From Sphaeroforma arctica JP610 (Eukaryota), in NCBI RefSeq assembly GCF_001186125.1, contig NW_014040531.1, positions 82,469-102,468 of the forward strand: a DNA stretch of 20,000 bases, given 5' to 3'. The notes beneath the pieces were generated by a model. That model was not told the origin of the DNA and ran no database searches. It saw nothing but the letters and a program-made list of their open reading frames with translations. The first letter of the stretch is position 1, and the number at the start of each line of letters is the position of its first letter. Positions 10,701-20,000 of this stretch are shown here, in pieces. A program made the position numbers and the translations under genes.

Positions 10701-13700
10701 GAGGCATGAGGTGTTGACATGGTATGACCATGTGTGTGTTCCTCTGCTGTTGTTTTGAATATTGACAAGTGGTTTGTCATGTTTAATGACAGTAGTGTGT
10801 GCTGCCTCGTGATGTTAGATCACTTTATGTGCGATAGAATCTAAGGTAAGGTACAATATGATAGTGCACCCGCAGGAGGTTGATCAGGTAACAGCGCGTG
10901 CGTATACCTCTACTGGTGCTATTATCGGTAATGCTCGACAGAAAGTGCAATGCACACCTCTCTTCGCTCGATGCTAGGCACAAAGGCGATATTTATCCAC
11001 CATAAGATGTAGAACACGACGTGTGTGGTGAAGACTACCAGACTGATACCGCTAATATGCGATAAGGAGAAATTGATTGTGAGATATGGCTGGCATTGAT
11101 AGAGCCTGCAAGGTGGTGCACACCTACCACAAAACGTTCTCAGACGGCTTCATCAATGCATAACGAGTGTGGGATACAGCATCTTCTGTATGGCGACACG
11201 CCAGACAGTTAGTAATTCTAAAGAGCAGATGCAACAAACTTCATACAGGGGTACAGAAAAATTCTACAGTTGATTCATAAGAAACTCACTTAATTGTCCT
11301 CAGATATAATCTAAACCTCTTAAGCCCGCCTGCCAGACAGAATCTAAATACACAACATTGACAAGTTCAGCACCAAACAAAAATTATTAACCCATAAAAG
11401 AATATATACATACATACATACCGATTTCTCCTGGTCAGGGGTCATGGGGATGATATTCATCGGTGTCTCCATGCCCAGCGCCATGTTACCTACAGGCGTG
11501 GCTCCCACAAAGGCCTGTCCTCCAACTGGAGTCTCCGCTCCGGCATGTAGACTGGGTGTCTTGTCCCATCGCGATCGCTTGCGCGAAGGTGTTTCAGCCA
11601 CCTGCAGTATGCGTGCAAACATTTAGAATATACATGAGACATGCGTGCGAGCATTTAAAATATACACGAGACATGCGTGCGAGCATTTAGAATATACATG
11701 AGACATGCGTGCGAGCATTTACAATATACATGAGACATGCGTGCGAGCATTTAGAATATACATGAGACATGAAACAATATCCGGTAGCAGGGCGGCATAG
11801 GTTGTTAACGGCAAGGTGCGTTCTGTTTTTGGACATGCGGCGATAATGTTCGATATGGAACACTATTTGTTCTGCCTCTGAAACAGGGACCCACCGTGCC
11901 CACTTTGCTCGGCTACATTGCCTAGCTCATCAGATTAAAGCAAAGAAAAATAAATAAAACTGCTCACACGGGTACCGTAATGCACGGGATATACAGTTTA
12001 ATTTTCTATATACAGACGTAAAAACAACATAAATAAATAAATACATACATACAGACGAATGTACATAAATACACACACACACCCCACACACACATATATA
12101 TAATATATATACATGTATATATTTGGATGAATATATGTATAGATATATAGATACAGATTTAGATATAAATTTATATATATATAAGTCCATGCAAGTCCAC
12201 CTACCCCATCAGCTCGAGGCGTCTCGCCCCAGCCCGACGTTGCAGCACTGTCATGGGCGGGTGTTGCATCCCAGCGGTTGCGCTTTCTTGCCGGTGTTTC
12301 GCCTGGCCGAGGTGTGGCAGCCACACCAGAGGCCCCATTTGGTGTTGCATCCCAACGCGAGTCTGCTGTAGACCTTGGTGTTTCCTGCACACCCTCCCAG
12401 GCCTCTGGAGCTAATTAACGAACGGATCAAACGTTGGAGAAGGAGTTTGGTGAGAGATGCGTGAGAATCGATCTATTGCTTCTCACTGATATTGACATTG
12501 ACATTGTGAAAGATTCGTAAATATTCATAGTTCACATGAATGAAAAGATCGATGGAGAAAATGTATGTAACAAATTTCACTTAAAATCATTGTGTCGTTT
12601 TTGACCATCGACCCCACTCGGAAGATTTTGAATTTATCAACGCCCGAACGGTCACAAGCACATTGTATTATTGACATACCTTTCGTTTTGGGTGCTTGGT
12701 CGAAACGTGATCGCCTCTTGCGAGGCTCTCCTTCTGTGGCAGCTGCAGCAGGCTTCGACGGTGGCGGCGGCATAACACCTGCAACAACATAAGACCGTGA
12801 TTAATGAGAGACCTTAAAAATGACTTACAAATACCTAGCAGATTGCCGTACACTAGCACTGTGCGTCACCTGAAGCACCGAAAGACCTCGCGAAGATATA
12901 AAACAGCACACCTATATACTTGTAATTGCAAACCTATGTGCATGAATGGTCATTGTAGCAGCGTATCATGGACGCCAATATAAGAACCTATGGTAGACTG
13001 CCCCGCCAACGGATGAACCGAACTCCTGCATTGTAAATGCAAGGCTCAGCACTCGATTCATAGTGTAATGCCTACATCAGGTAAGATCTCTACAGTATAC
13101 TTAAGTCACTGACACTACTAAGCCAACCAAACGACGAACCAGGACTATTCGAGGAGCTTAATGGGGTTGTGCGTGAGCCGACCGTAGCTAGTCTGGGCGA
13201 AGCAGACGATAAGCCTAAAGCAAGTCACGAATGCCAATGTAACGAGTACATAGCACGTGGTCTGCAACCGGATGCAGCATATTTCAAATATAATTAGCAC
13301 ACACAAGAAGGCAGGGATATGTCATCAACGAGAACAAAAAGAAAATCCTTATGTACACGCTATGATGCTGTACAGCAAAAGCCGTAACACAAGCAGGTAT
13401 ACCATTTGCAGCCTGATCCTCTTTCTGTTTCTGAATCATCTTAAGCACCTCCCCATGTTCCTTCTCCAAGGCTTGTTCTTTAATAATATCCGCATACGAA
13501 CGATTTTCGCTACCTGGAGTGATACAGAAATAGGGCGAGTATAAGACATAGTAGCGGACATGATAGTTTACCACTCCACACGGACAACCTTAGGAAGCGG
13601 CCTTCGGCTTGAATATACGTGAATGCAAATGCGAACAATAGCAAAGCCAGACATAAGAGGGCCACGAGAAACTCTTGCAATTTGTTTATACGAAGAAATG

Positions 13701-16700
13701 TTCTCGATTCCAGAACAAGGGTATCAGGTATCGTAACCGTACCACCATGCTCCATACCGCAATTCTAAGTAATTGTACACAAGTAAACAAGCAGGGTGAC
13801 GTGACTGACTTTGTTACATACTTGGGGCAGGCGTTGCGCCGCCGGCAAAGGGATCTGCACGCTCGGGAGATATGATGCGGTTACGCCGGCGCTGTTGGTA
13901 TTCGTTCTCTCGCGCACTGATGCGCTGATCTCTCTCTGCGAACACATCCTCATCGCCTTCGCCTTGAGGCTGTGACGAAGGACAGGATACGGGTAAGTGA
14001 ATGCGGAAGTCGATGTGCAACCCTCAGGCTATCACCTATGTGCTTGAACGTAACGGCCGATACATCACCCACCAACTCAACTTTAAATATTGCAGTGTAT
14101 GTGGGTGTGAGTGTGATAGTGCATGTTATGTGCAAGTGCACTGGAACCAAAGAGTGTAAGCTAGACTCTCCAAATGATGGAATAAAATATCGCTGAGAAA
14201 TGCATATAAATCCACACATGGACTTGTGTCTACGTTTCTTGTACAAAATCATGATCATATTAATATTACTCAAGCATGAACAACTAAGACCTAGCAGGCC
14301 GCTTTGGGATCACGGCTTGAAAGGCAGTAGTTCAACTATAGACTACAGCACCCGCCTCATCCTATACACTTCATGCGGTCCCCTACACAGGGCACCCATA
14401 TCAGTAAAGATGAGTCTCATATCTCAGTACAGACGTAGATATACAAATATTTGAGCAACTGTGTTAGACATATACCATACCATGCACATACTCACCTTTA
14501 ACAGAGCAGAGGGGGCGGTAAACTGACGTTTCTTGGTGGCGACGGCGGTGGGTCCCATGCGTGCACTGTGGGCCATAGCGTCGGCCTCAGTCTCGTCTTC
14601 ATCCTCGTCATTGGCTGCGATAGATGTCGAGAACCCTGCATATCTACAGAGGGTTATTCAGACACGAATATTCATTTGATTCAATTCAAGATAAACATGT
14701 GTATATACATGCTCATACAGTCAAGAAGTGACTTGCCTCACTTTCTTGATAGTAGAGCGTGGTGAGTCACATATATGCAAGCGCGATGTGAGTACGTGGA
14801 ATGAGAAAGCTAAAAATCTGGAATATCTACGCTTCCCAGAGAGCGAGCACAAATGCACCATATCGCTTCCCACTTTCGGCTGAGAATGAGGGCAGTAATG
14901 CGTATATATACTGTAAACATTTGGGAATGGAGTGTACAGCGTCATACAGATTTATAAGAGCGGATAAAAAAGATATAATCTGAATAATATTATGAAGAAA
15001 CTTGCTCCCCTGAAAAAGTACGTACACATACATATATGCAAACTGTACCATGTCAATATTTTCTTGTTGATGTTCATCCGTACACACATACATACAACAA
15101 AAGTATATAAATAATATAATAATATGACTATATATATATATACGCACAAAAACAACACACACACACACGCACATATATATATATATATATATAATATACA
15201 TATATTCCTCAAATTCATATACACACACACATGCACATATATAGATACATATATATACAATACATGCATATATTTAATAATATATACATATACACTATAT
15301 ATATATATATATATATACATACATACATACATACATATATATATATACATACATATATATATATATATATATTATATATATGTATATATTATAAATATAT
15401 ACACATGCATGGATGTGTGTAAATATACGTTAGCATCACACACACAGATATATATATATATAAGTATATTTATATTTATCTATATGGGTGTGTGTGTTTG
15501 TACGTACGTACGTACGTATGTATGCATTTATATTATATATATATATATATATATATTGTTTTATTCTTATTGTTATCATTGATTTATATTTATAAGTATA
15601 TTTATATATTTTATACACATTTAGTTATATTGAATGCAATATTTTCCGTGTGCGCTCTTGTGGCTGCTACCAAGTGTCTTACTTTCAAGTAATCATCGCG
15701 GCAGAATAATATACGTACATGGATAAGCAGAAATGTTATGTGCATCAATTTATGTTTGCGTTCGTGTGTATACCATCTACATGCACAGATATTTATGTAT
15801 ATATCGTATTTTTCTGGCTCGTATTTTCGCTTTAGTTTTAGTCTCTTTTTTGTACAATGTATGTTGTCTCGTGTAATAAGAGCATGTTTCTGACTGTAGA
15901 ACATGATGACTATTTCTTTGCCTTAAACGTTGAATCTTTTATCCTTCTATCAATTTTGTCATATTTACACTGATTTTTTTGGGCGGATTCGTGTCTGATT
16001 TAGTTCTAAAGTTTTTGCTCGGCACATGCAATTGTCACAGGTACTTTGGCATTACCACCTTTGATATAACAAAGTGATAAAGTACCGCATCTTCAGCATA
16101 TCCCTCTTCCCACACTGCCTGTAGAAGTACGAAATGCTTTTCATTCTCGGACTGTCCAATACTTAATTAAGCTTTTCACTCTGTATTCGAAACTATTTTC
16201 TCTTCTAACACTTATACAGGTTACAATCAGCGGATGTCGAACGGAATATGTCCGATCGGGTGCTAACCAGTTTCTTCCGCGAAACGGTGCTCACCATGGC
16301 GGCCACTCGGTCAAGGGATGATAAAAAACGATTCCTGGAATTATGCGCTATACTACTTGCCATGGACGTTTTACCCGCCAGCACGGTCATGTTCGTAGCT
16401 CAGGTGAGTGTGTGGGAGATACATATCAGTCAGACCATAATCGTTAACTTCAGCTGCTTGGCATGTTCTGGGGCTTGCAGTTCATGTGCAACGCTGGAAT
16501 GTTGCGTTCCATTGTCGTTGCTTTGCTTTGTCCTCCAAGTGATACCTCAGTATATACATCCTAAAACACACACCACGAACCCGATCGGCAGTCGATCGGA
16601 TGGTCAGGGATACAACGCAATGGCGTACTTCTCATTGGTAACTCTATTCTGACTCTGTTTCTTCCTGTGGTGCTCAGGACTGCCTTGCCACCAGCACCAT

Positions 16701-18113
16701 CTTTGAGTGCGAGCTTCTCTTCTCTTTCCTGGAGGACAACATGCGCTTCTTCGGCTCATGCAAGAACACACTCCTCATTGTGTGCACGGGTCTTATTGCA
16801 CGCCTCTCCACTGTTTTAAACGCTGGGTTCAGAGGCAGGATACTATTGTTTCTAGCCCGGTTCTATCCACTAACAGACAAGTCTGGGGCAAATGTCATTG
16901 GAGCGTTCAACACGGATCTGAACTTTGGTGATGTGGAAGCCGAGTTGGAGGGTATGTGAGGTTCGCAGCGTGATTGAATGAGGATCGTGTGGTGATTATG
17001 TACTGCCAAAGGTGCAGCTGTGTGTGTACAGCTGCCTATTGAACTAGTCAAAATTATCTGCGTGTTTTGTAGATGACTTGCTTAAAAGCAGGTATCGGGT
17101 ACGTTCATCTGCTCTGAGATCGCGCGAAAACATGTGGAGGAGCTGGGGATCACTGATGAAACAAAAGCTGATACCATTTAGTTTGATATATGTAGATTCT
17201 TACTCACACTTTATGTGCTACGTTGTTCCTGTTCCCAAATGCGACAGAAGAGAAATCGCGCACCTCGACACCCCAGGTCCTTGGCACAGCCGATCCAATG
17301 GACACTGACGAGACTGTGGAGACCAGTACCAAATCTGTTCCTGGTGTGTATATATCATATGTTCGGTACGGGCATCGAGAGACACGTGTGCTGCAAACAT
17401 TAGATATAAACACAAAGTGGCGAAGTAGCGAATATCCCGCCTTAGTTTTAGTACTCATCATAAGTCTGGCTGCGGATCTGACAATTGTATTCTGAGTACC
17501 GAGCGATTGTCGACATGATGCTGTTCGAACCAATATGGAGTTATCGAATACCCAAACGTCTACTGATTTTGGTTGGTGAATATATTTATATGCGGTCCGG
17601 GCACACTAACTGGCATGTGTGTCTATGGTAGCAGTCAGGACTATCGGACCTCGTCTCAGTCTAGCTGTTCGCGGCTGCTTTACAATTATACGCATCCAAC
17701 GCATTCGCACTCAACACCATACCTCTGCGATGCTGAGCATGCATGCCGCTATAAGTCTGCACGAACATTCATAGCCATCCCATTCACCGCGATAGGTGCC
17801 AGCGAATACATGCCGATTGATAGTACCGGCTGCCTGGGTGATGTAACGGGTCAGGGCGCCACAGACTTCGATCTGTTCCGCAAGTACTCTAAACTGCAGA
17901 TGTTCTGTCAGAAACCGCAACTGATTTTCGATGAATCGGGACAGGCGTTCAAGGACTTTTTGGGATGTGTGAATACACTAGCGACTACATTCGAGGGAGA
18001 TCGTTTGGGCGATAAGAAAGCGCATGAGATGGGAGTCGGCCCGGAGGTACATATACTACATGATATAGTACTGTGTGTAAATTTGGGATGTTTTCGTAAT
18101 GTCTATGGTTTTA

Positions 18114-18158
<45 letters not shown>

Positions 18159-18242
18159 NTGTNTNTANNNNNNNNNNNNNNNNNNNNCATAAATACATGC
18201 ATGCATGTATGTATGAATACGTAGCTACATAGATAAATGGAT

Positions 18243-18275
<33 letters not shown>

Positions 18276-18329
18276 GTATTATATATATATATAAACACGT
18301 AAACATATATATAATATATATATATACAC

Positions 18330-18363
<34 letters not shown>

Positions 18364-18400
18364 GTATATATATATATACATATACACATACATATACACA

Positions 18401-18462
<62 letters not shown>

Positions 18463-18485
18463 CACACACACACACATATATATAT

Positions 18486-18520
<35 letters not shown>

Positions 18521-18537
18521 TATATATACAGCTACAT

Positions 18538-18590
<53 letters not shown>

Positions 18591-18792
18591 ATATCAACAT
18601 GAGTAACTTGGCCATGCACTGCGACATATCACTTGCAACATACCGGTCCGTACTACCGCCATAAACATCCGTGTCAAAGGTACTCTTTCCAGCACCCAGT
18701 TGCACTCTCTCTTCCTCATTGACTGCTTCAGACTCAGCTTTGCGCTTCGCTTGCAGTTCAGCGATCTGTTTGTCGATTGCGGTGTCATCCAT
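318..18792 (-). CDS. SF3B1: Splicing factor 3B subunit 1 (SF3b155/SAP155/Hsh155), 23 exons in window, 3' end beyond left edge
   Basis: Exons on the - strand: 18644-18792, 14496-14643, 13822-13969, 13403-13513, 12680-12778, 12205-12410, 11422-11601, 10387-10559, 9384-9492, 8735-8917, 8296-8412, 7827-7953, 7171-7314, 6119-6228, 5519-5642, 4866-5011, 4297-4455, 3517-3690, 3152-3367, 2486-2680, 1798-1989, 1064-1303, 318-527. All introns are GT-AG with matching phases. Hallmark motifs: RWD(A/K)TP ULMs, [85 protein letters not shown]. Confidence 0.98.
1064..1303 (-). CDS. SF3B1: SF3B1 exon 22 ([17 protein letters not shown]...LMDRDL)
   Basis: CCCAG| acceptor, TTG|GTATGT donor. Confidence 0.96.
1675..1772. 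repeat. (CA)n/(TA)n compound microsatellite
   Basis: Seen directly. Confidence 0.9.
1798..1989 (-). CDS. SF3B1: SF3B1 exon 21 ([10 protein letters not shown]...LLNNLK)
   Basis: TGCAG| acceptor, AAG|GTGGGT donor. Confidence 0.96.
2486..2680 (-). CDS. SF3B1: SF3B1 exon 20 ([20 protein letters not shown]...ENCIDL)
   Basis: TACAG| acceptor, TTG|GTACGT donor. Confidence 0.96.
3152..3367 (-). CDS. SF3B1: SF3B1 exon 19 ([18 protein letters not shown]...LMSQ)
   Basis: CATAG| acceptor, CAG|GTATGT donor. Confidence 0.96.
3420..3485. repeat. Short degenerate pentamer array (AAATG/ATATG/ATACG)
   Basis: gaaatgaaatgatatg...atatgatatgatacgatacg. Confidence 0.7.
3517..3690 (-). CDS. SF3B1: SF3B1 exon 18 ([24 protein letters not shown]...FAFQ)
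   Basis: CTCAG| acceptor, CAG|GTATAA donor. Confidence 0.96.
4297..4455 (-). CDS. SF3B1: SF3B1 exon 17 ([11 protein letters not shown]...TTVELANK)
   Basis: TCCAG| acceptor, AAG|GTATGC donor. Confidence 0.96.
4866..5011 (-). CDS. SF3B1: SF3B1 exon 16 ([11 protein letters not shown]...EMKKIVLK)
   Basis: AACAG| acceptor, AAG|GTAATG donor. Confidence 0.96.
5519..5642 (-). CDS. SF3B1: SF3B1 exon 15 ([27 protein letters not shown]...HHGK)
   Basis: TGCAG| acceptor, G|GTTCGT donor. Confidence 0.95.
6119..6228 (-). CDS. SF3B1: SF3B1 exon 14 ([14 protein letters not shown]...VDEQQK)
   Basis: CTCAG| acceptor, AAG|GTACGT donor. Confidence 0.96.
6356..6846. repeat. 35-bp minisatellite, 14 copies, in SF3B1 intron 13
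   Basis: Unit AATGCAATTGCAACAAAGACGAATAAAGTCTATTG (34-36 bp), head-to-tail with no spacers. Confidence 0.97.
7171..7314 (-). CDS. SF3B1: SF3B1 exon 13 ([17 protein letters not shown]...SWQARHT)
   Basis: GTCAG| acceptor, G|GTAAGT donor. Confidence 0.96.
7626..7750. repeat. (TA)n/(CA)n microsatellite
   Basis: Seen directly. Confidence 0.9.
7827..7953 (-). CDS. SF3B1: SF3B1 exon 12 ([24 protein letters not shown]...MRP)
   Basis: AACAG| acceptor, G|GTATGT donor. Confidence 0.96.
8296..8412 (-). CDS. SF3B1: SF3B1 exon 11 ([20 protein letters not shown]...PYVHK)
   Basis: TCCAG| acceptor, AAG|GTGTGT donor. Confidence 0.96.
8735..8917 (-). CDS. SF3B1: SF3B1 exon 10 (YFGKLL...[11 protein letters not shown]...GPLFNQ)
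   Basis: CTCAG| acceptor, CAG|GTATGG donor. Confidence 0.96.
8918..9053. repeat. 46-bp tandem repeat, about 3 copies, containing the branch point and 3' splice site of SF3B1 intron 9
   Basis: Unit CTGAGTGATGGAAGTGATAA(A/C)AGTCAAAGATGTTAGGTCACGACAA starting at 8918, 8964 and 9010. Confidence 0.96.
9384..9492 (-). CDS. SF3B1: SF3B1 exon 9 (FMMAED...[10 protein letters not shown])
   Basis: CGCAG| acceptor, CAG|GTATGT donor. Confidence 0.92.
9701..10065. repeat. 99-bp tandem repeat, 3 full copies plus 1 partial diverged copy, in SF3B1 intron 8
   Basis: ACCATACACATTTAACGTC... recurs at 9701, 9800, 9899 and 9998. Confidence 0.96.
10051..10146 (-). pseudogene. Decayed intronic copy of the 3' half of SF3B1 exon 8
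   Basis: Reads [25 protein letters not shown] versus exon 8 [30 protein letters not shown]; contains frameshifts and a CGA>TGA change. Confidence 0.88.
10387..10559 (-). CDS. SF3B1: SF3B1 exon 8 (p14/SF3B6-binding region, [21 protein letters not shown]...TATPTP)
   Basis: ACCAG| acceptor, GG|GTATGA donor. Confidence 0.95.
11422..11601 (-). CDS. SF3B1: SF3B1 exon 7 ([16 protein letters not shown]...)
   Basis: TGCAG| acceptor, TCG|GTATGT donor. Confidence 0.93.
11609..11771. repeat. 32-bp tandem repeat, 5 copies, adjacent to the 3' splice site of SF3B1 intron 6
   Basis: Unit ATGCGTGCGAGCATTTAGAATATACATGAGAC at 11609, 11641, 11673, 11705 and 11737. Confidence 0.96.
12030..12183. repeat. (TA)n/(CA)n low-complexity tract
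   Basis: Seen directly. Confidence 0.88.
12205..12410 (-). CDS. SF3B1: SF3B1 exon 6 (ULM/TP-repeat region)
   Basis: [27 protein letters not shown]| acceptor (an in-frame alternative CCAG lies 6 nt further in), GGG|GTAGGT donor. Confidence 0.92.
12680..12778 (-). CDS. SF3B1: SF3B1 exon 5 (VMPPPP...RKRRSRFDQ)
   Basis: TGCAG| acceptor, G|GTATGT donor; first ULM-like motif. Confidence 0.88.
13403..13513 (-). CDS. SF3B1: SF3B1 exon 4 ([18 protein letters not shown]...)
   Basis: TCCAG| acceptor, G|GTATAC donor; RSYxDI motif. Confidence 0.88.
13822..13969 (-). CDS. SF3B1: SF3B1 exon 3 ([10 protein letters not shown]...[17 protein letters not shown])
   Basis: CACAG| acceptor, |GTATGT donor; conserved IISPERxDPF motif. 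Confidence 0.92.
14496..14643 (-). CDS. SF3B1: SF3B1 exon 2 ([16 protein letters not shown]...FTAPSALLK)
   Basis: TGTAG| acceptor, AAG|GTGAGT donor; phase fits exon 1. Confidence 0.9.
15080..15620. repeat. Long compound (TA)n/(CA)n/(TACA)n/(GTAC)n microsatellite
   Basis: Seen directly; source of the spurious YI-rich ORFs. Confidence 0.95.
16220..16403 (+). CDS. THOC1: THOC1 internal exon 2 ([14 protein letters not shown]...STVMFVAQ)
   Basis: TTCTAAC branch point, ATACAG| acceptor, CAG|GTGAGT donor; in frame with the next, diagnostic exon. Confidence 0.82.
16678..16951 (+). CDS. THOC1: THOC1 internal exon 3 ([19 protein letters not shown]...[23 protein letters not shown]...FN)
   Basis: Matches the THOC1/Hpr1 conserved block (human FCGRIQLFLARLFPLSEKSGLN, from recall); CTCAG| acceptor, G|GTATGT donor. 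Confidence 0.93.
17248..17343 (+). CDS. THOC1: THOC1 internal exon 4 (acidic linker EEKSRTSTP...[17 protein letters not shown])
   Basis: GACAG| acceptor and G|GTGTGT donor, both phase 1; acidic MDxD linker at the expected position. Confidence 0.72.
17796..18046 (+). CDS. THOC1: THOC1 internal exon 5 (...[19 protein letters not shown]...FKDFL...F)
   Basis: Resembles THOC1 DYNLYRKFWSLQDYFRNP; GATAG| acceptor, GAG|GTACAT donor. Confidence 0.85.
18112..18592. repeat. Long compound (TA)n/(CA)n/(TACATA)n microsatellite containing an assembly gap
   Basis: Seen directly; Ns at 18159-18187. Confidence 0.95.
18159..18187. other. Scaffold gap (Ns)
   Basis: Scattered n followed by a run of n characters. 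Confidence 0.99.
18644..18792 (-). CDS. SF3B1: SF3B1 exon 1 ([18 protein letters not shown]...[11 protein letters not shown])
   Basis: ATG at 18792; donor CG|GTATGT, phase 2; resembles the SF3B1 N-terminus. Confidence 0.88.
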
Positions 18793-19425
18793 ATTGTATA
18801 CTACTACGAAACTACAAGCTCAAAACCCGCGTGAGGCCAGATGTACCGGAAAGTTCGCGTAGAGAAAATTGCAATATATAGAATTGTTCAGATCTTAGAT
18901 CTGTGCCATAACAGGCTGCGTCACTCAATAATATTATAGTCTATCCGATGGATCAAATAGATGTGCGTGTTGACTATTTCGTATGAACTATGTGTGTATA
19001 CCAGTCTTCATATTCGGCGTCGCATGGATTATCGCCCAGAGTGATATGTCTGATTTTCAATTGAGTACCGAACTGTTCAATACAAAAATTGTTAGGACGT
19101 TACGAACTGGCGTTTTAAAAATACACACAAAAATCAAATTGTGTGTGTATGTGTTTTTTAGTTGATCTCACACCCCCAGGCCCCAGAGAGTCCCAGACTC
19201 CCGGAGAGTTTGAAATTTTATTTAATACTGCCGGGGTGGTGGTACGTTGTCCAAAACAAACTTGAGCTGCGGATTAACGAGATACTTTAGAGTCATATCA
19301 CATCGAAGTAGTTCATGTCTGCATACAGCTGTCCTGTATTCAGACGGTTAGGTACGCGTGTACCAGAACATACACTGAGAAATATTCAACGGCATAGTTG
19401 CCGGCTATAAATAGCTTTGAACACC
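18793..19425. promoter_or_regulatory. Putative bidirectional promoter/5'UTR region between head-to-head SF3B1 and THOC1
   Basis: 633 bp between two divergent ATGs; no specific elements assigned. Confidence 0.5.
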
Positions 19426-19646
19426 ATGGCTGCAGCCTGTGACACTGACATGGTCGTGTCTGGTGACCAGATTACTGATGATAACATAGAAGCCAACGAA
19501 ACGAATAACAAGGCAATTCTAGGCATTCTATCTACCTCTATATTTAGCTTTATAGACCAGAAAGATGAAGCTGTCACTTATGAAGACGTTACGGACAGTG
19601 ACATCCACCAGGCGGTTAATCATTTCCGGAAGATACATGAAAAGGG
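19426..19646 (+). CDS. THOC1: Probable first coding exon of THO complex subunit 1 (MAAACDTD...FRKIHEKG)
   Basis: acaccATGG start context. The phase-2 donor GG|GTACGT fits the phase-2 acceptor at 16220, and the following intron echoes exon 16220-16403. The peptide alone is not diagnostic. Confidence 0.7.
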
Positions 19647-19966
19647 GTACGTAGGTTTCAATTGATGTGCACTTCGAAACTTATTTACCGAATATATGCA
19701 TGATAGGATGATATAATCACGATTAATGATATCTCCTCCTATACTTCTGATAGTTAATAATTTGTGCCTGTAGATTTCTTATTCTTGCATGCGTGTACTT
19801 CGTAGCTCGTTTCGTTGACATTACTTTTGTCGCGAAAATCGGTGCGATCATTGTCGCTGGTATTTTGCATCGTGTACATGTATTCTTTGTGTTGCAAGTA
19901 CCGCATATTAATGTCGTATGGATTGAATTATATGTGCAAATGTGCGATGAATGCGAAAAAGCATAA

Positions 19967-19967
<1 letters not shown>

Positions 19968-20000
<33 letters not shown>
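19968..20000. repeat. Start of another (CA)n(TA)n tract, running off the right edge
   Basis: Seen directly. Confidence 0.9.

What the first reader, a model, noticed from the sequence alone, without database searches (positions are those of the whole stretch)
15620..19646. THOC1 exons out of order: exons 2-5 nested antisense in SF3B1 intron 1, upstream of exon 1
Seen: four clean, phase-compatible THOC1 internal exons (16220-18046) have no start exon before them and no continuation before SF3B1 exon 1. A phase-matched first exon lies downstream on the same strand (19426-19646; GG|..|G = Gly). The 2.5-kb block is bounded by long (TA)n tracts, one containing the N gap, and another (CA/TA)n tract begins at 19968. 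Inference: most likely a contig mis-ordered through microsatellites that belongs right of 20000, which would shorten SF3B1 intron 1 to roughly 1.5 kb or less. If the order is real, it would be a microsatellite-mediated segmental duplication or a scrambled gene needing trans-splicing.
Basis: partly seen in the sequence, partly recalled or inferred. Interest (0 to 1): 0.7.

Follow-up and report, generated by a model that had tools for sequence, protein, structure and literature searches.

The report
Swapped assembly pieces scramble THOC1 exons
The out-of-order THOC1 exons are in this sequence as described, but the transcript joins them in normal order and the block is single-copy, so this is most likely a draft-assembly error that swapped two neighbouring DNA pieces between microsatellites in an ordinary head-to-head SF3B1/THOC1 gene pair.

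Summary
Observation confirmed; most likely an assembly artefact. The window encodes Sphaeroforma arctica SARC_00772 letter for letter. THOC1 exons 2-5 (16220-18046, +) lie in SF3B1 intron 1, upstream of exon 1 (19426-19646). Spliced contigs from three studies join exon 1 to exon 2; two of them run on through exon 5 to an exon outside the window. In two DNA runs the block (~15535-18137) and the promoter piece (~18565-19990) are separate contigs ending in dinucleotide tracts, with depth ratios 1.04 and 0.99, so the block is not duplicated. This fits the textbook three-repeat B/C swap. The annotation of the later PacBio assembly lists one SF3B1 and one THOC1 model with consecutive numbers and no flanking model that behaves like a fragment; Creolimax has the same consecutive pair. 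Removing the block shrinks SF3B1 intron 1 from 4000 to about 1270 nt (21 other introns: median 496, max 942). No DNA record spanning a tract was available, so the true order is inferred, not read. Artefact about 0.93; real scrambled gene about 0.02.

The parts
19426..19646 (+). THOC1 exon 1, coding part (ATG to phase-2 donor); the RNA contigs start at 19266
   Evidence: spliced to exon 2 in X17 and X18 and seen as the loose end before exon 2 in X17 and X20
16220..16403 (+). THOC1 exon 2
16678..16951 (+). THOC1 exon 3 (start of Pfam efThoc1)
17248..17343 (+). THOC1 exon 4
   Evidence: joint table
17796..18046 (+). THOC1 exon 5; the RNA goes on into an exon 6 that is not in the window
   Evidence: (best window match to the next 30 nt has 12 mismatches)
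15535..18137 (.). Block B: one single-copy short-read contig with exons 2-5, both ends inside (TA)n runs; inferred true place right of 20000
   Evidence: records of 2601 and 2604 nt, 0 other letters, depth 124.7 and 37.2; ends computed
18565..19990 (.). Block C: single-copy contig with SF3B1 exon 1, the shared promoter region and THOC1 exon 1, bounded by (CA)n runs; a 34-nt (CA)n(TA)n word is identical at 18554 and 19967
   Evidence: records of 1394 and 1426 nt, depth 120.2 and 37.4
18644..18792 (-). SF3B1 exon 1, coding part; the RNA contigs start at 18988 and 18979
14496..14643 (-). SF3B1 exon 2, joined to exon 1 in RNA
   Evidence: loose end matches 14609-14638 exactly
18989..19265 (.). 277 nt between the two RNA contig 5' ends; inferred bidirectional promoter
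15080..15595 (.). Left dinucleotide tract; gap-free in this assembly; inferred misjoin near 15463, where strand composition flips
18080..18615 (.). Middle dinucleotide tract with the 20-N gap (18168-18187); strand composition flips at the gap
19967..20000 (.). Start of the third (CA/TA)n tract, inside THOC1 intron 1

Best explanation
THOC1 exons 2-5 sit upstream of exon 1 in this sequence, while the transcript joins the exons in normal order and the block is single-copy, so the order is most likely an assembly error in which two adjacent unique pieces were swapped between three similar (TA/CA)n tracts. The inferred true order is A-C-B-D: SF3B1 exons 2 onward (A), SF3B1 exon 1 + promoter + THOC1 exon 1 (C), THOC1 exons 2-5 (B), THOC1 exon 6 onward (D). 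The assembly shows A-B-C. In the cell SF3B1 and THOC1 would be an ordinary head-to-head pair, each cis-spliced. Shown: exon structure, RNA joins, single-copy depth, contig ends in the tracts. Inferred: the true DNA order, the place of the left misjoin, and that D follows.
For: (1) X17 holds a 4316-nt contig (same length and depth 104.9 in both calls, so taken as one record) covering 19266-19648 at letters 1-383 and exons 2-5 at 381-1186 with GT-AG skips; the predicted end of exon 5 is 1186. X18 shows the exon 1-to-2 join from the exon 1 side; X20, another organism label with 17 substitutions, shows it from the exon 2 side. (2) DNA depth of B over C: 124.7/120.2 = 1.04 and 37.2/37.4 = 0.99; one contig each, 0 other letters. 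(3) B and C are separate contigs in both DNA runs, each ending in a dinucleotide run, so short reads cannot order them; one junction is an N gap. (4) Long-read annotation (PMC6855841, supplementary rows): the SF3B1 orthogroup holds only Sarc4_g4888T and the THOC1 orthogroup only Sarc4_g4889T. g4887 has 0 TPM in 20 of 20 samples and another orthogroup; g4890 and g4891 fall steeply over the time course (Spearman with g4889 -0.44 and -0.48), unlike a second piece of one mRNA. A split gene would need such a piece on one side. (5) Creolimax has the same orthogroups as 5549 and 5550, and CFRG5550T1 is one 909-aa THOC1. (6) Intron 1 is 4000 nt against median 496, max 942 for 21 other SF3B1 introns; about 1274 nt without the block. 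(7) Phillippy et al. describe this three-repeat B/C swap (PMC2397507 passages); the older S. arctica assembly has 15,618 supercontigs, N50 64.6 kb.
Against: No DNA read or contig that spans a tract was seen, so A-C-B-D is not read directly. The left junction has no N gap, so a gap-free misjoin must be assumed there. The three tracts share only short exact words (8-34 nt), not one long identical repeat. The long-read evidence is gene numbers and expression rows, not coordinates; that pipeline can merge models. About 1270 nt would still be the longest SF3B1 intron. Sequence right of 20000 was not available. X14 may be a source of this DNA (flag). The strand-composition flip is expected under real nesting too.
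Confidence: 0.93

Rival explanations
1. The order is real and THOC1 mRNA is built out of order: exon 1 from one transcript is trans-spliced to exons 2-5 made from upstream, antisense within SF3B1 intron 1, and then to exon 6.
For: The RNA joins are out of order relative to this assembly. The left junction is gap-free. No spanning DNA record excludes it.
Against: It needs two efficient out-of-order splices for an abundant mRNA, in two organism labels (X17/X18 and X20). Both breakpoints fall in sequence that short reads cannot order, one of them at an N gap. The long-read annotation has a single THOC1 model with no partner fragment. A paper search for Sphaeroforma with trans-splicing gave 3 listings, none by title or abstract start about such a case (not read further).
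Confidence: 0.02
2. Segmental duplication: a true copy of exons 2-5 lies right of the window and an extra copy was inserted into SF3B1 intron 1 through microsatellites.
For: The block has tracts on both sides; sequence right of 20000 was not seen.
Against: Depth ratios 1.04 and 0.99, where 2 is expected; one contig per run with 0 other letters. The exon 3 search found 1 protein among 121 candidates, in a cluster of 1 member.
Confidence: 0.02
3. A real rearrangement in the culture or haplotype used for this assembly only, with other cultures collinear.
For: It would explain the gap-free left join; long TA tracts are breakage-prone (general knowledge, recalled).
Against: It would break THOC1; it needs three breakpoints exactly in the tracts; the contigs laid show no alternative joints or loose ends in DNA, though contigs drop rare variants.
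Confidence: 0.03

Closest known systems
Rearrangement-type mis-assembly, three-copy repeat with regions B and C swapped (Phillippy et al. 2008, PMC2397507, Fig. 3; passages read)
   Same: Two unique single-copy segments between three similar repeats appear in swapped order; copy number is right, order is wrong; it mimics a biological rearrangement.
   Different: Here the repeats are imperfect dinucleotide tracts sharing 8-34-nt exact words, and one junction is a scaffold gap; mate-pair signatures could not be checked.
Exon-order anomalies as markers of draft misassembly (rhesus macaque, PMC3426473; passages read)
   Same: mRNA-to-genome exon order exposes a misplaced contig and a spurious automated gene model; here SARC_00772 starts at an internal Met (16248) and reads 49 codons into intron 4.
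   Different: Those cases were mostly exons on the wrong chromosome or orientation; here it is a local swap of 2.6-kb and 1.4-kb pieces.
THOC1/Hpr1 (THO complex subunit 1), closest relative Creolimax fragrantissima CFRG5550T1
   Same: PF11957; 54% identity over the best stretch; exons 2-5 collinear with residues 59-318; numbered next to SF3B1 in both species.
   Different: Exon 1 is poorly conserved; orientation of the Creolimax pair is not known from the data seen.
Genic trans-splicing and scrambled genes (e.g. Drosophila mod(mdg4), split dynein and Hsp90 introns of Giardia; recalled, from no call)
   Same: mRNA exon order differs from the order in the reference DNA.
   Different: In those cases the DNA order is established and pieces are separate transcription units; here the DNA order rests on unresolvable microsatellite junctions.

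Membership tests
THOC1/Hpr1 | efThoc1 domain PF11957 | tested here: met
   exon 3, E 1.6e-13, 50.6 bits against cut-off 27
THOC1/Hpr1 | exons collinear with a full-length relative | tested here: met
   exons 2-5 map in order to Creolimax 59-318
THOC1/Hpr1 | exon 1 homologous to relatives' N-terminus | tested here: inconclusive
   no BLASTP match; anchored gain reached by 38 of 1000 shuffles, and real beat shuffled in only 16 of 69 long homologues
SF3B1 | sequence match to solved SF3B1 chains | tested here: met
   exon 1064-1303, E 1.1e-46 to 5ife_C; 23 exons give 1218 codons without stop
Three-repeat swap mis-assembly | two unique segments bounded by three similar repeats | tested here: met
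   contigs B and C end in dinucleotide tracts in 2 of 2 DNA runs
Three-repeat swap mis-assembly | segments present at single copy | tested here: met
   depth ratios 1.04 and 0.99
Three-repeat swap mis-assembly | independent long-range DNA shows the other order | tested here: inconclusive
   only gene numbers, orthogroups and TPM rows of the long-read annotation were seen; they fit the collinear order but give no coordinates
Three-repeat swap mis-assembly | violated mate pairs or reads across the junctions | not testable with these tools
   all 24 runs listed are kept as contigs
Segmental duplication | double depth or a diverged second copy | tested here: not met
Nested intronic gene | self-contained gene with its own start and stop inside the host intron | tested here: not met
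   RNA contigs enter exon 2 from exon 1 and leave exon 5 for an exon outside the window
Trans-spliced or scrambled gene | non-collinear DNA order proven on single molecules | not testable with these tools
   no record spans a tract

The most novel reading that the evidence does not exclude
The order is real: an ichthyosporean THOC1 gene has exons 2-5 parked antisense in the first intron of SF3B1, upstream of its own exon 1, and an abundant full-length mRNA is assembled by two out-of-order splices, conserved in a related organism.
Probability: 0.02. Interest if true: 0.85.

Novelty: not a real feature. Interest (0 to 1): 0.05.

Why it matters
As an artefact it matters only for curation: SARC_00772 is a spurious 225-aa model, and the older S. 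arctica draft should not be trusted for exon order or intron length where introns hold long TA/CA tracts. A small real by-product is that SF3B1 and THOC1 are head to head with 277 nt between transcript ends and are numbered neighbours in Creolimax too. If the order were real, it would be a rare case of obligatory out-of-order splicing of a housekeeping gene in a close relative of animals.

Tried and rejected
No whole genome is held for this window, so the DNA right of 20000 could not be read. Search with exon 1 among longer proteins: 0 of 22 candidates scored; exact look-ups of the exon 1 and SF3B1 exon 1 read-through frames: 0 of 2 found. Search with the Creolimax C-terminal part for the S. 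arctica downstream fragment: 0 of 7997 candidates. Metagenome scan: 1 locus of 551 stretches, a 27-residue match flanked by stops, taken as chance. Supplement search by gene and Pfam names: 0 of 12 files. Paper search for the three gene ids: 0 papers. Earlier scan findings: none by place or words. No RNA holder is on record as RNA; X17, X18 and X20 are taken as RNA because their contigs skip GT-AG introns or stop at exon ends with loose ends matching the next exon. No RNA contig covers the block upstream of exon 2, but contigs show presence only, so this is not used. One search used a wrong exon 4 end (4 stops) and a faulty donor score; both were corrected; the composition switch points do not depend on that fault. 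Two recalled S. pombe ids found nothing in the orthogroup file. Creolimax neighbours: 1 of 4 ids found (5552), whose S. arctica orthologues have distant numbers, so wider synteny was not shown. That a 20-N gap is one assembler's minimum gap is recalled and was not confirmed (one search gave nothing on it).

Full report
Observation. The window holds SF3B1 on the minus strand: 23 exons from 18792 to 318 chain into 1218 codons without a stop (boundaries chosen by a script from approximate positions, so inner ones may be a few bases off), and one exon matches solved SF3B1 chains at E 1e-46. Inside its first intron (14644-18643) lie four plus-strand exons, 16220-16403, 16678-16951, 17248-17343 and 17796-18046, and a start exon lies at 19426-19646. 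In the order 1-2-3-4-5 they give 342 codons with no stop. Exon 3 hits efThoc1 (1 of 5 THOC1 exons hit Pfam).

Source. Exon 3 is 100% identical to SARC_00772 of Sphaeroforma arctica JP610, the only hit among 121 candidates. The window gives that 225-aa model letter for letter: it starts at an internal Met (16248) and reads 49 codons into intron 4. So the window is likely from the older draft (inferred), which has 15,618 supercontigs and N50 64,598 bp, against 732-737 and about 244 kb for the PacBio version (PMC6855841 supplement 1, read whole).

RNA. Of 24 runs listed, 5 were laid, all as contigs. Run X17 has a 4316-nt contig that covers 19266-19648 at its letters 1-383 and exons 2-5 at 381-1186, skipping three GT-AG introns. 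Records are numbered per answer; equal length and depth make me take them as one. The loose ends match exactly: before exon 2 lie window 19616-19645, after exon 1 lie 16222-16251. X18 (another study) shows the same join from the exon 1 side. X20 (another organism label, 17 substitutions) shows it from the exon 2 side, with 2 differences in 30 letters by eye. After exon 5, X17 and X20 go on into sequence absent from the window (best match 12 mismatches in 30 for X17). SF3B1 exon 1 is joined to exon 2 in X17 and X18. So both mRNAs are normal and exon 1 does belong to this THOC1, although it is hardly conserved. Contigs are not single molecules, and RNA alone cannot tell a misassembly from trans-splicing.

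DNA. In X14 and X7 the block is one contig of 2601 or 2604 nt with no other letters, reaching about 15535-18137, both ends in (TA)n runs. The piece with SF3B1 exon 1, the promoter and THOC1 exon 1 is another contig of 1394 or 1426 nt, about 18565-19990, ending at (CA)n runs. Depth ratios are 1.04 and 0.99, so the block is not duplicated in these samples. X14 may be a source of the window; X7 is not so flagged. Neither run spans a tract, so they neither confirm nor refute the order; they show that short reads cannot set it.

Long-read annotation. In the orthogroup table of PMC6855841 (supplement 7, rows found by search; file cut at 3,712 rows) the group with AT5G64270, Arabidopsis SAP155 (PMC545797 passage), holds Sarc4_g4888T and Cfra_5549T1; the group with Cfra_5550T1, shown here to be THOC1, holds only Sarc4_g4889T. 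If the scrambled order were in that assembly, a collinear predictor should give two THOC1 pieces, one of them g4887 or g4890. g4887 has 0 TPM in 20 of 20 samples and another orthogroup; g4890 has no orthogroup row, averages 3.4 TPM against 26.8 and correlates negatively with g4889. This is indirect: no coordinates were seen, and the pipeline can merge models (section 14 read), though the six numbers 4887-4892 are all present.

Anatomy. Intron 1 is 4000 nt against a median of 496 and a maximum of 942 for the other 21; without 15464-18187 it is about 1274 nt, and THOC1 intron 1 would be at least 1110 nt. Plus-strand AT skew is positive in 20 of 21 SF3B1 introns and on both flanks of the block, negative in all block introns; it flips at 15463 and at the N gap. 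This places the seams but is expected under real nesting too. Against the reading: the left seam has no gap, the tracts share only 8-34-nt exact words, and 1.3 kb is still the longest SF3B1 intron.

Mechanism and comparison. Two unique pieces between three similar repeats can be laid out as A-B-C-D or A-C-B-D; Phillippy et al. show this swap and warn that it mimics a biological rearrangement (PMC2397507, passages). Exon-order anomalies have been used as misassembly markers (PMC3426473, passages). I put the swap at 0.93, a culture-specific rearrangement at 0.03, duplication and true out-of-order splicing at 0.02 each. Searches that found no description of this locus.

Verdict. A well-spotted assembly artefact over an ordinary head-to-head SF3B1/THOC1 pair. 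One alignment to the PacBio contigs would settle it.

Noticed in passing
window 18988-19266; orthogroup rows: SF3B1 and THOC1 are head to head with 277 nt between RNA contig ends; their TPM correlate (Spearman 0.59, 20 samples). They are consecutive numbers in Creolimax too (5549, 5550) but carry different scaffold-like labels in Chromosphaera (s352, s349).
   Followed up: partly
window 16248-17495: The public model SARC_00772 (XP_014160998.1) is a truncated product of the misorder: internal start, 49 codons of intron 4 at its end.
   Followed up: yes
window 8917-9057: A 46-bp unit repeated 3.1 times abuts the acceptor of SF3B1 exon 10 and places two extra CAG acceptor-like sites 46 and 92 nt upstream of it.
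   Followed up: partly
window 6356-6847, 9696-10049, 11609-11771: Intronic minisatellites in SF3B1: 35 bp x 14, 99 bp x 3.6, 32 bp x 5.1.
   Followed up: no
window 18554-18587 and 19967-20000: An identical 34-nt (CA)n(TA)n word flanks block C on both sides.
   Followed up: partly
window 19266-19646 and 16220-18046: The THOC1 RNA contigs are 4316-4552 nt long, of which only the first 1186 are in the window.
   Followed up: no
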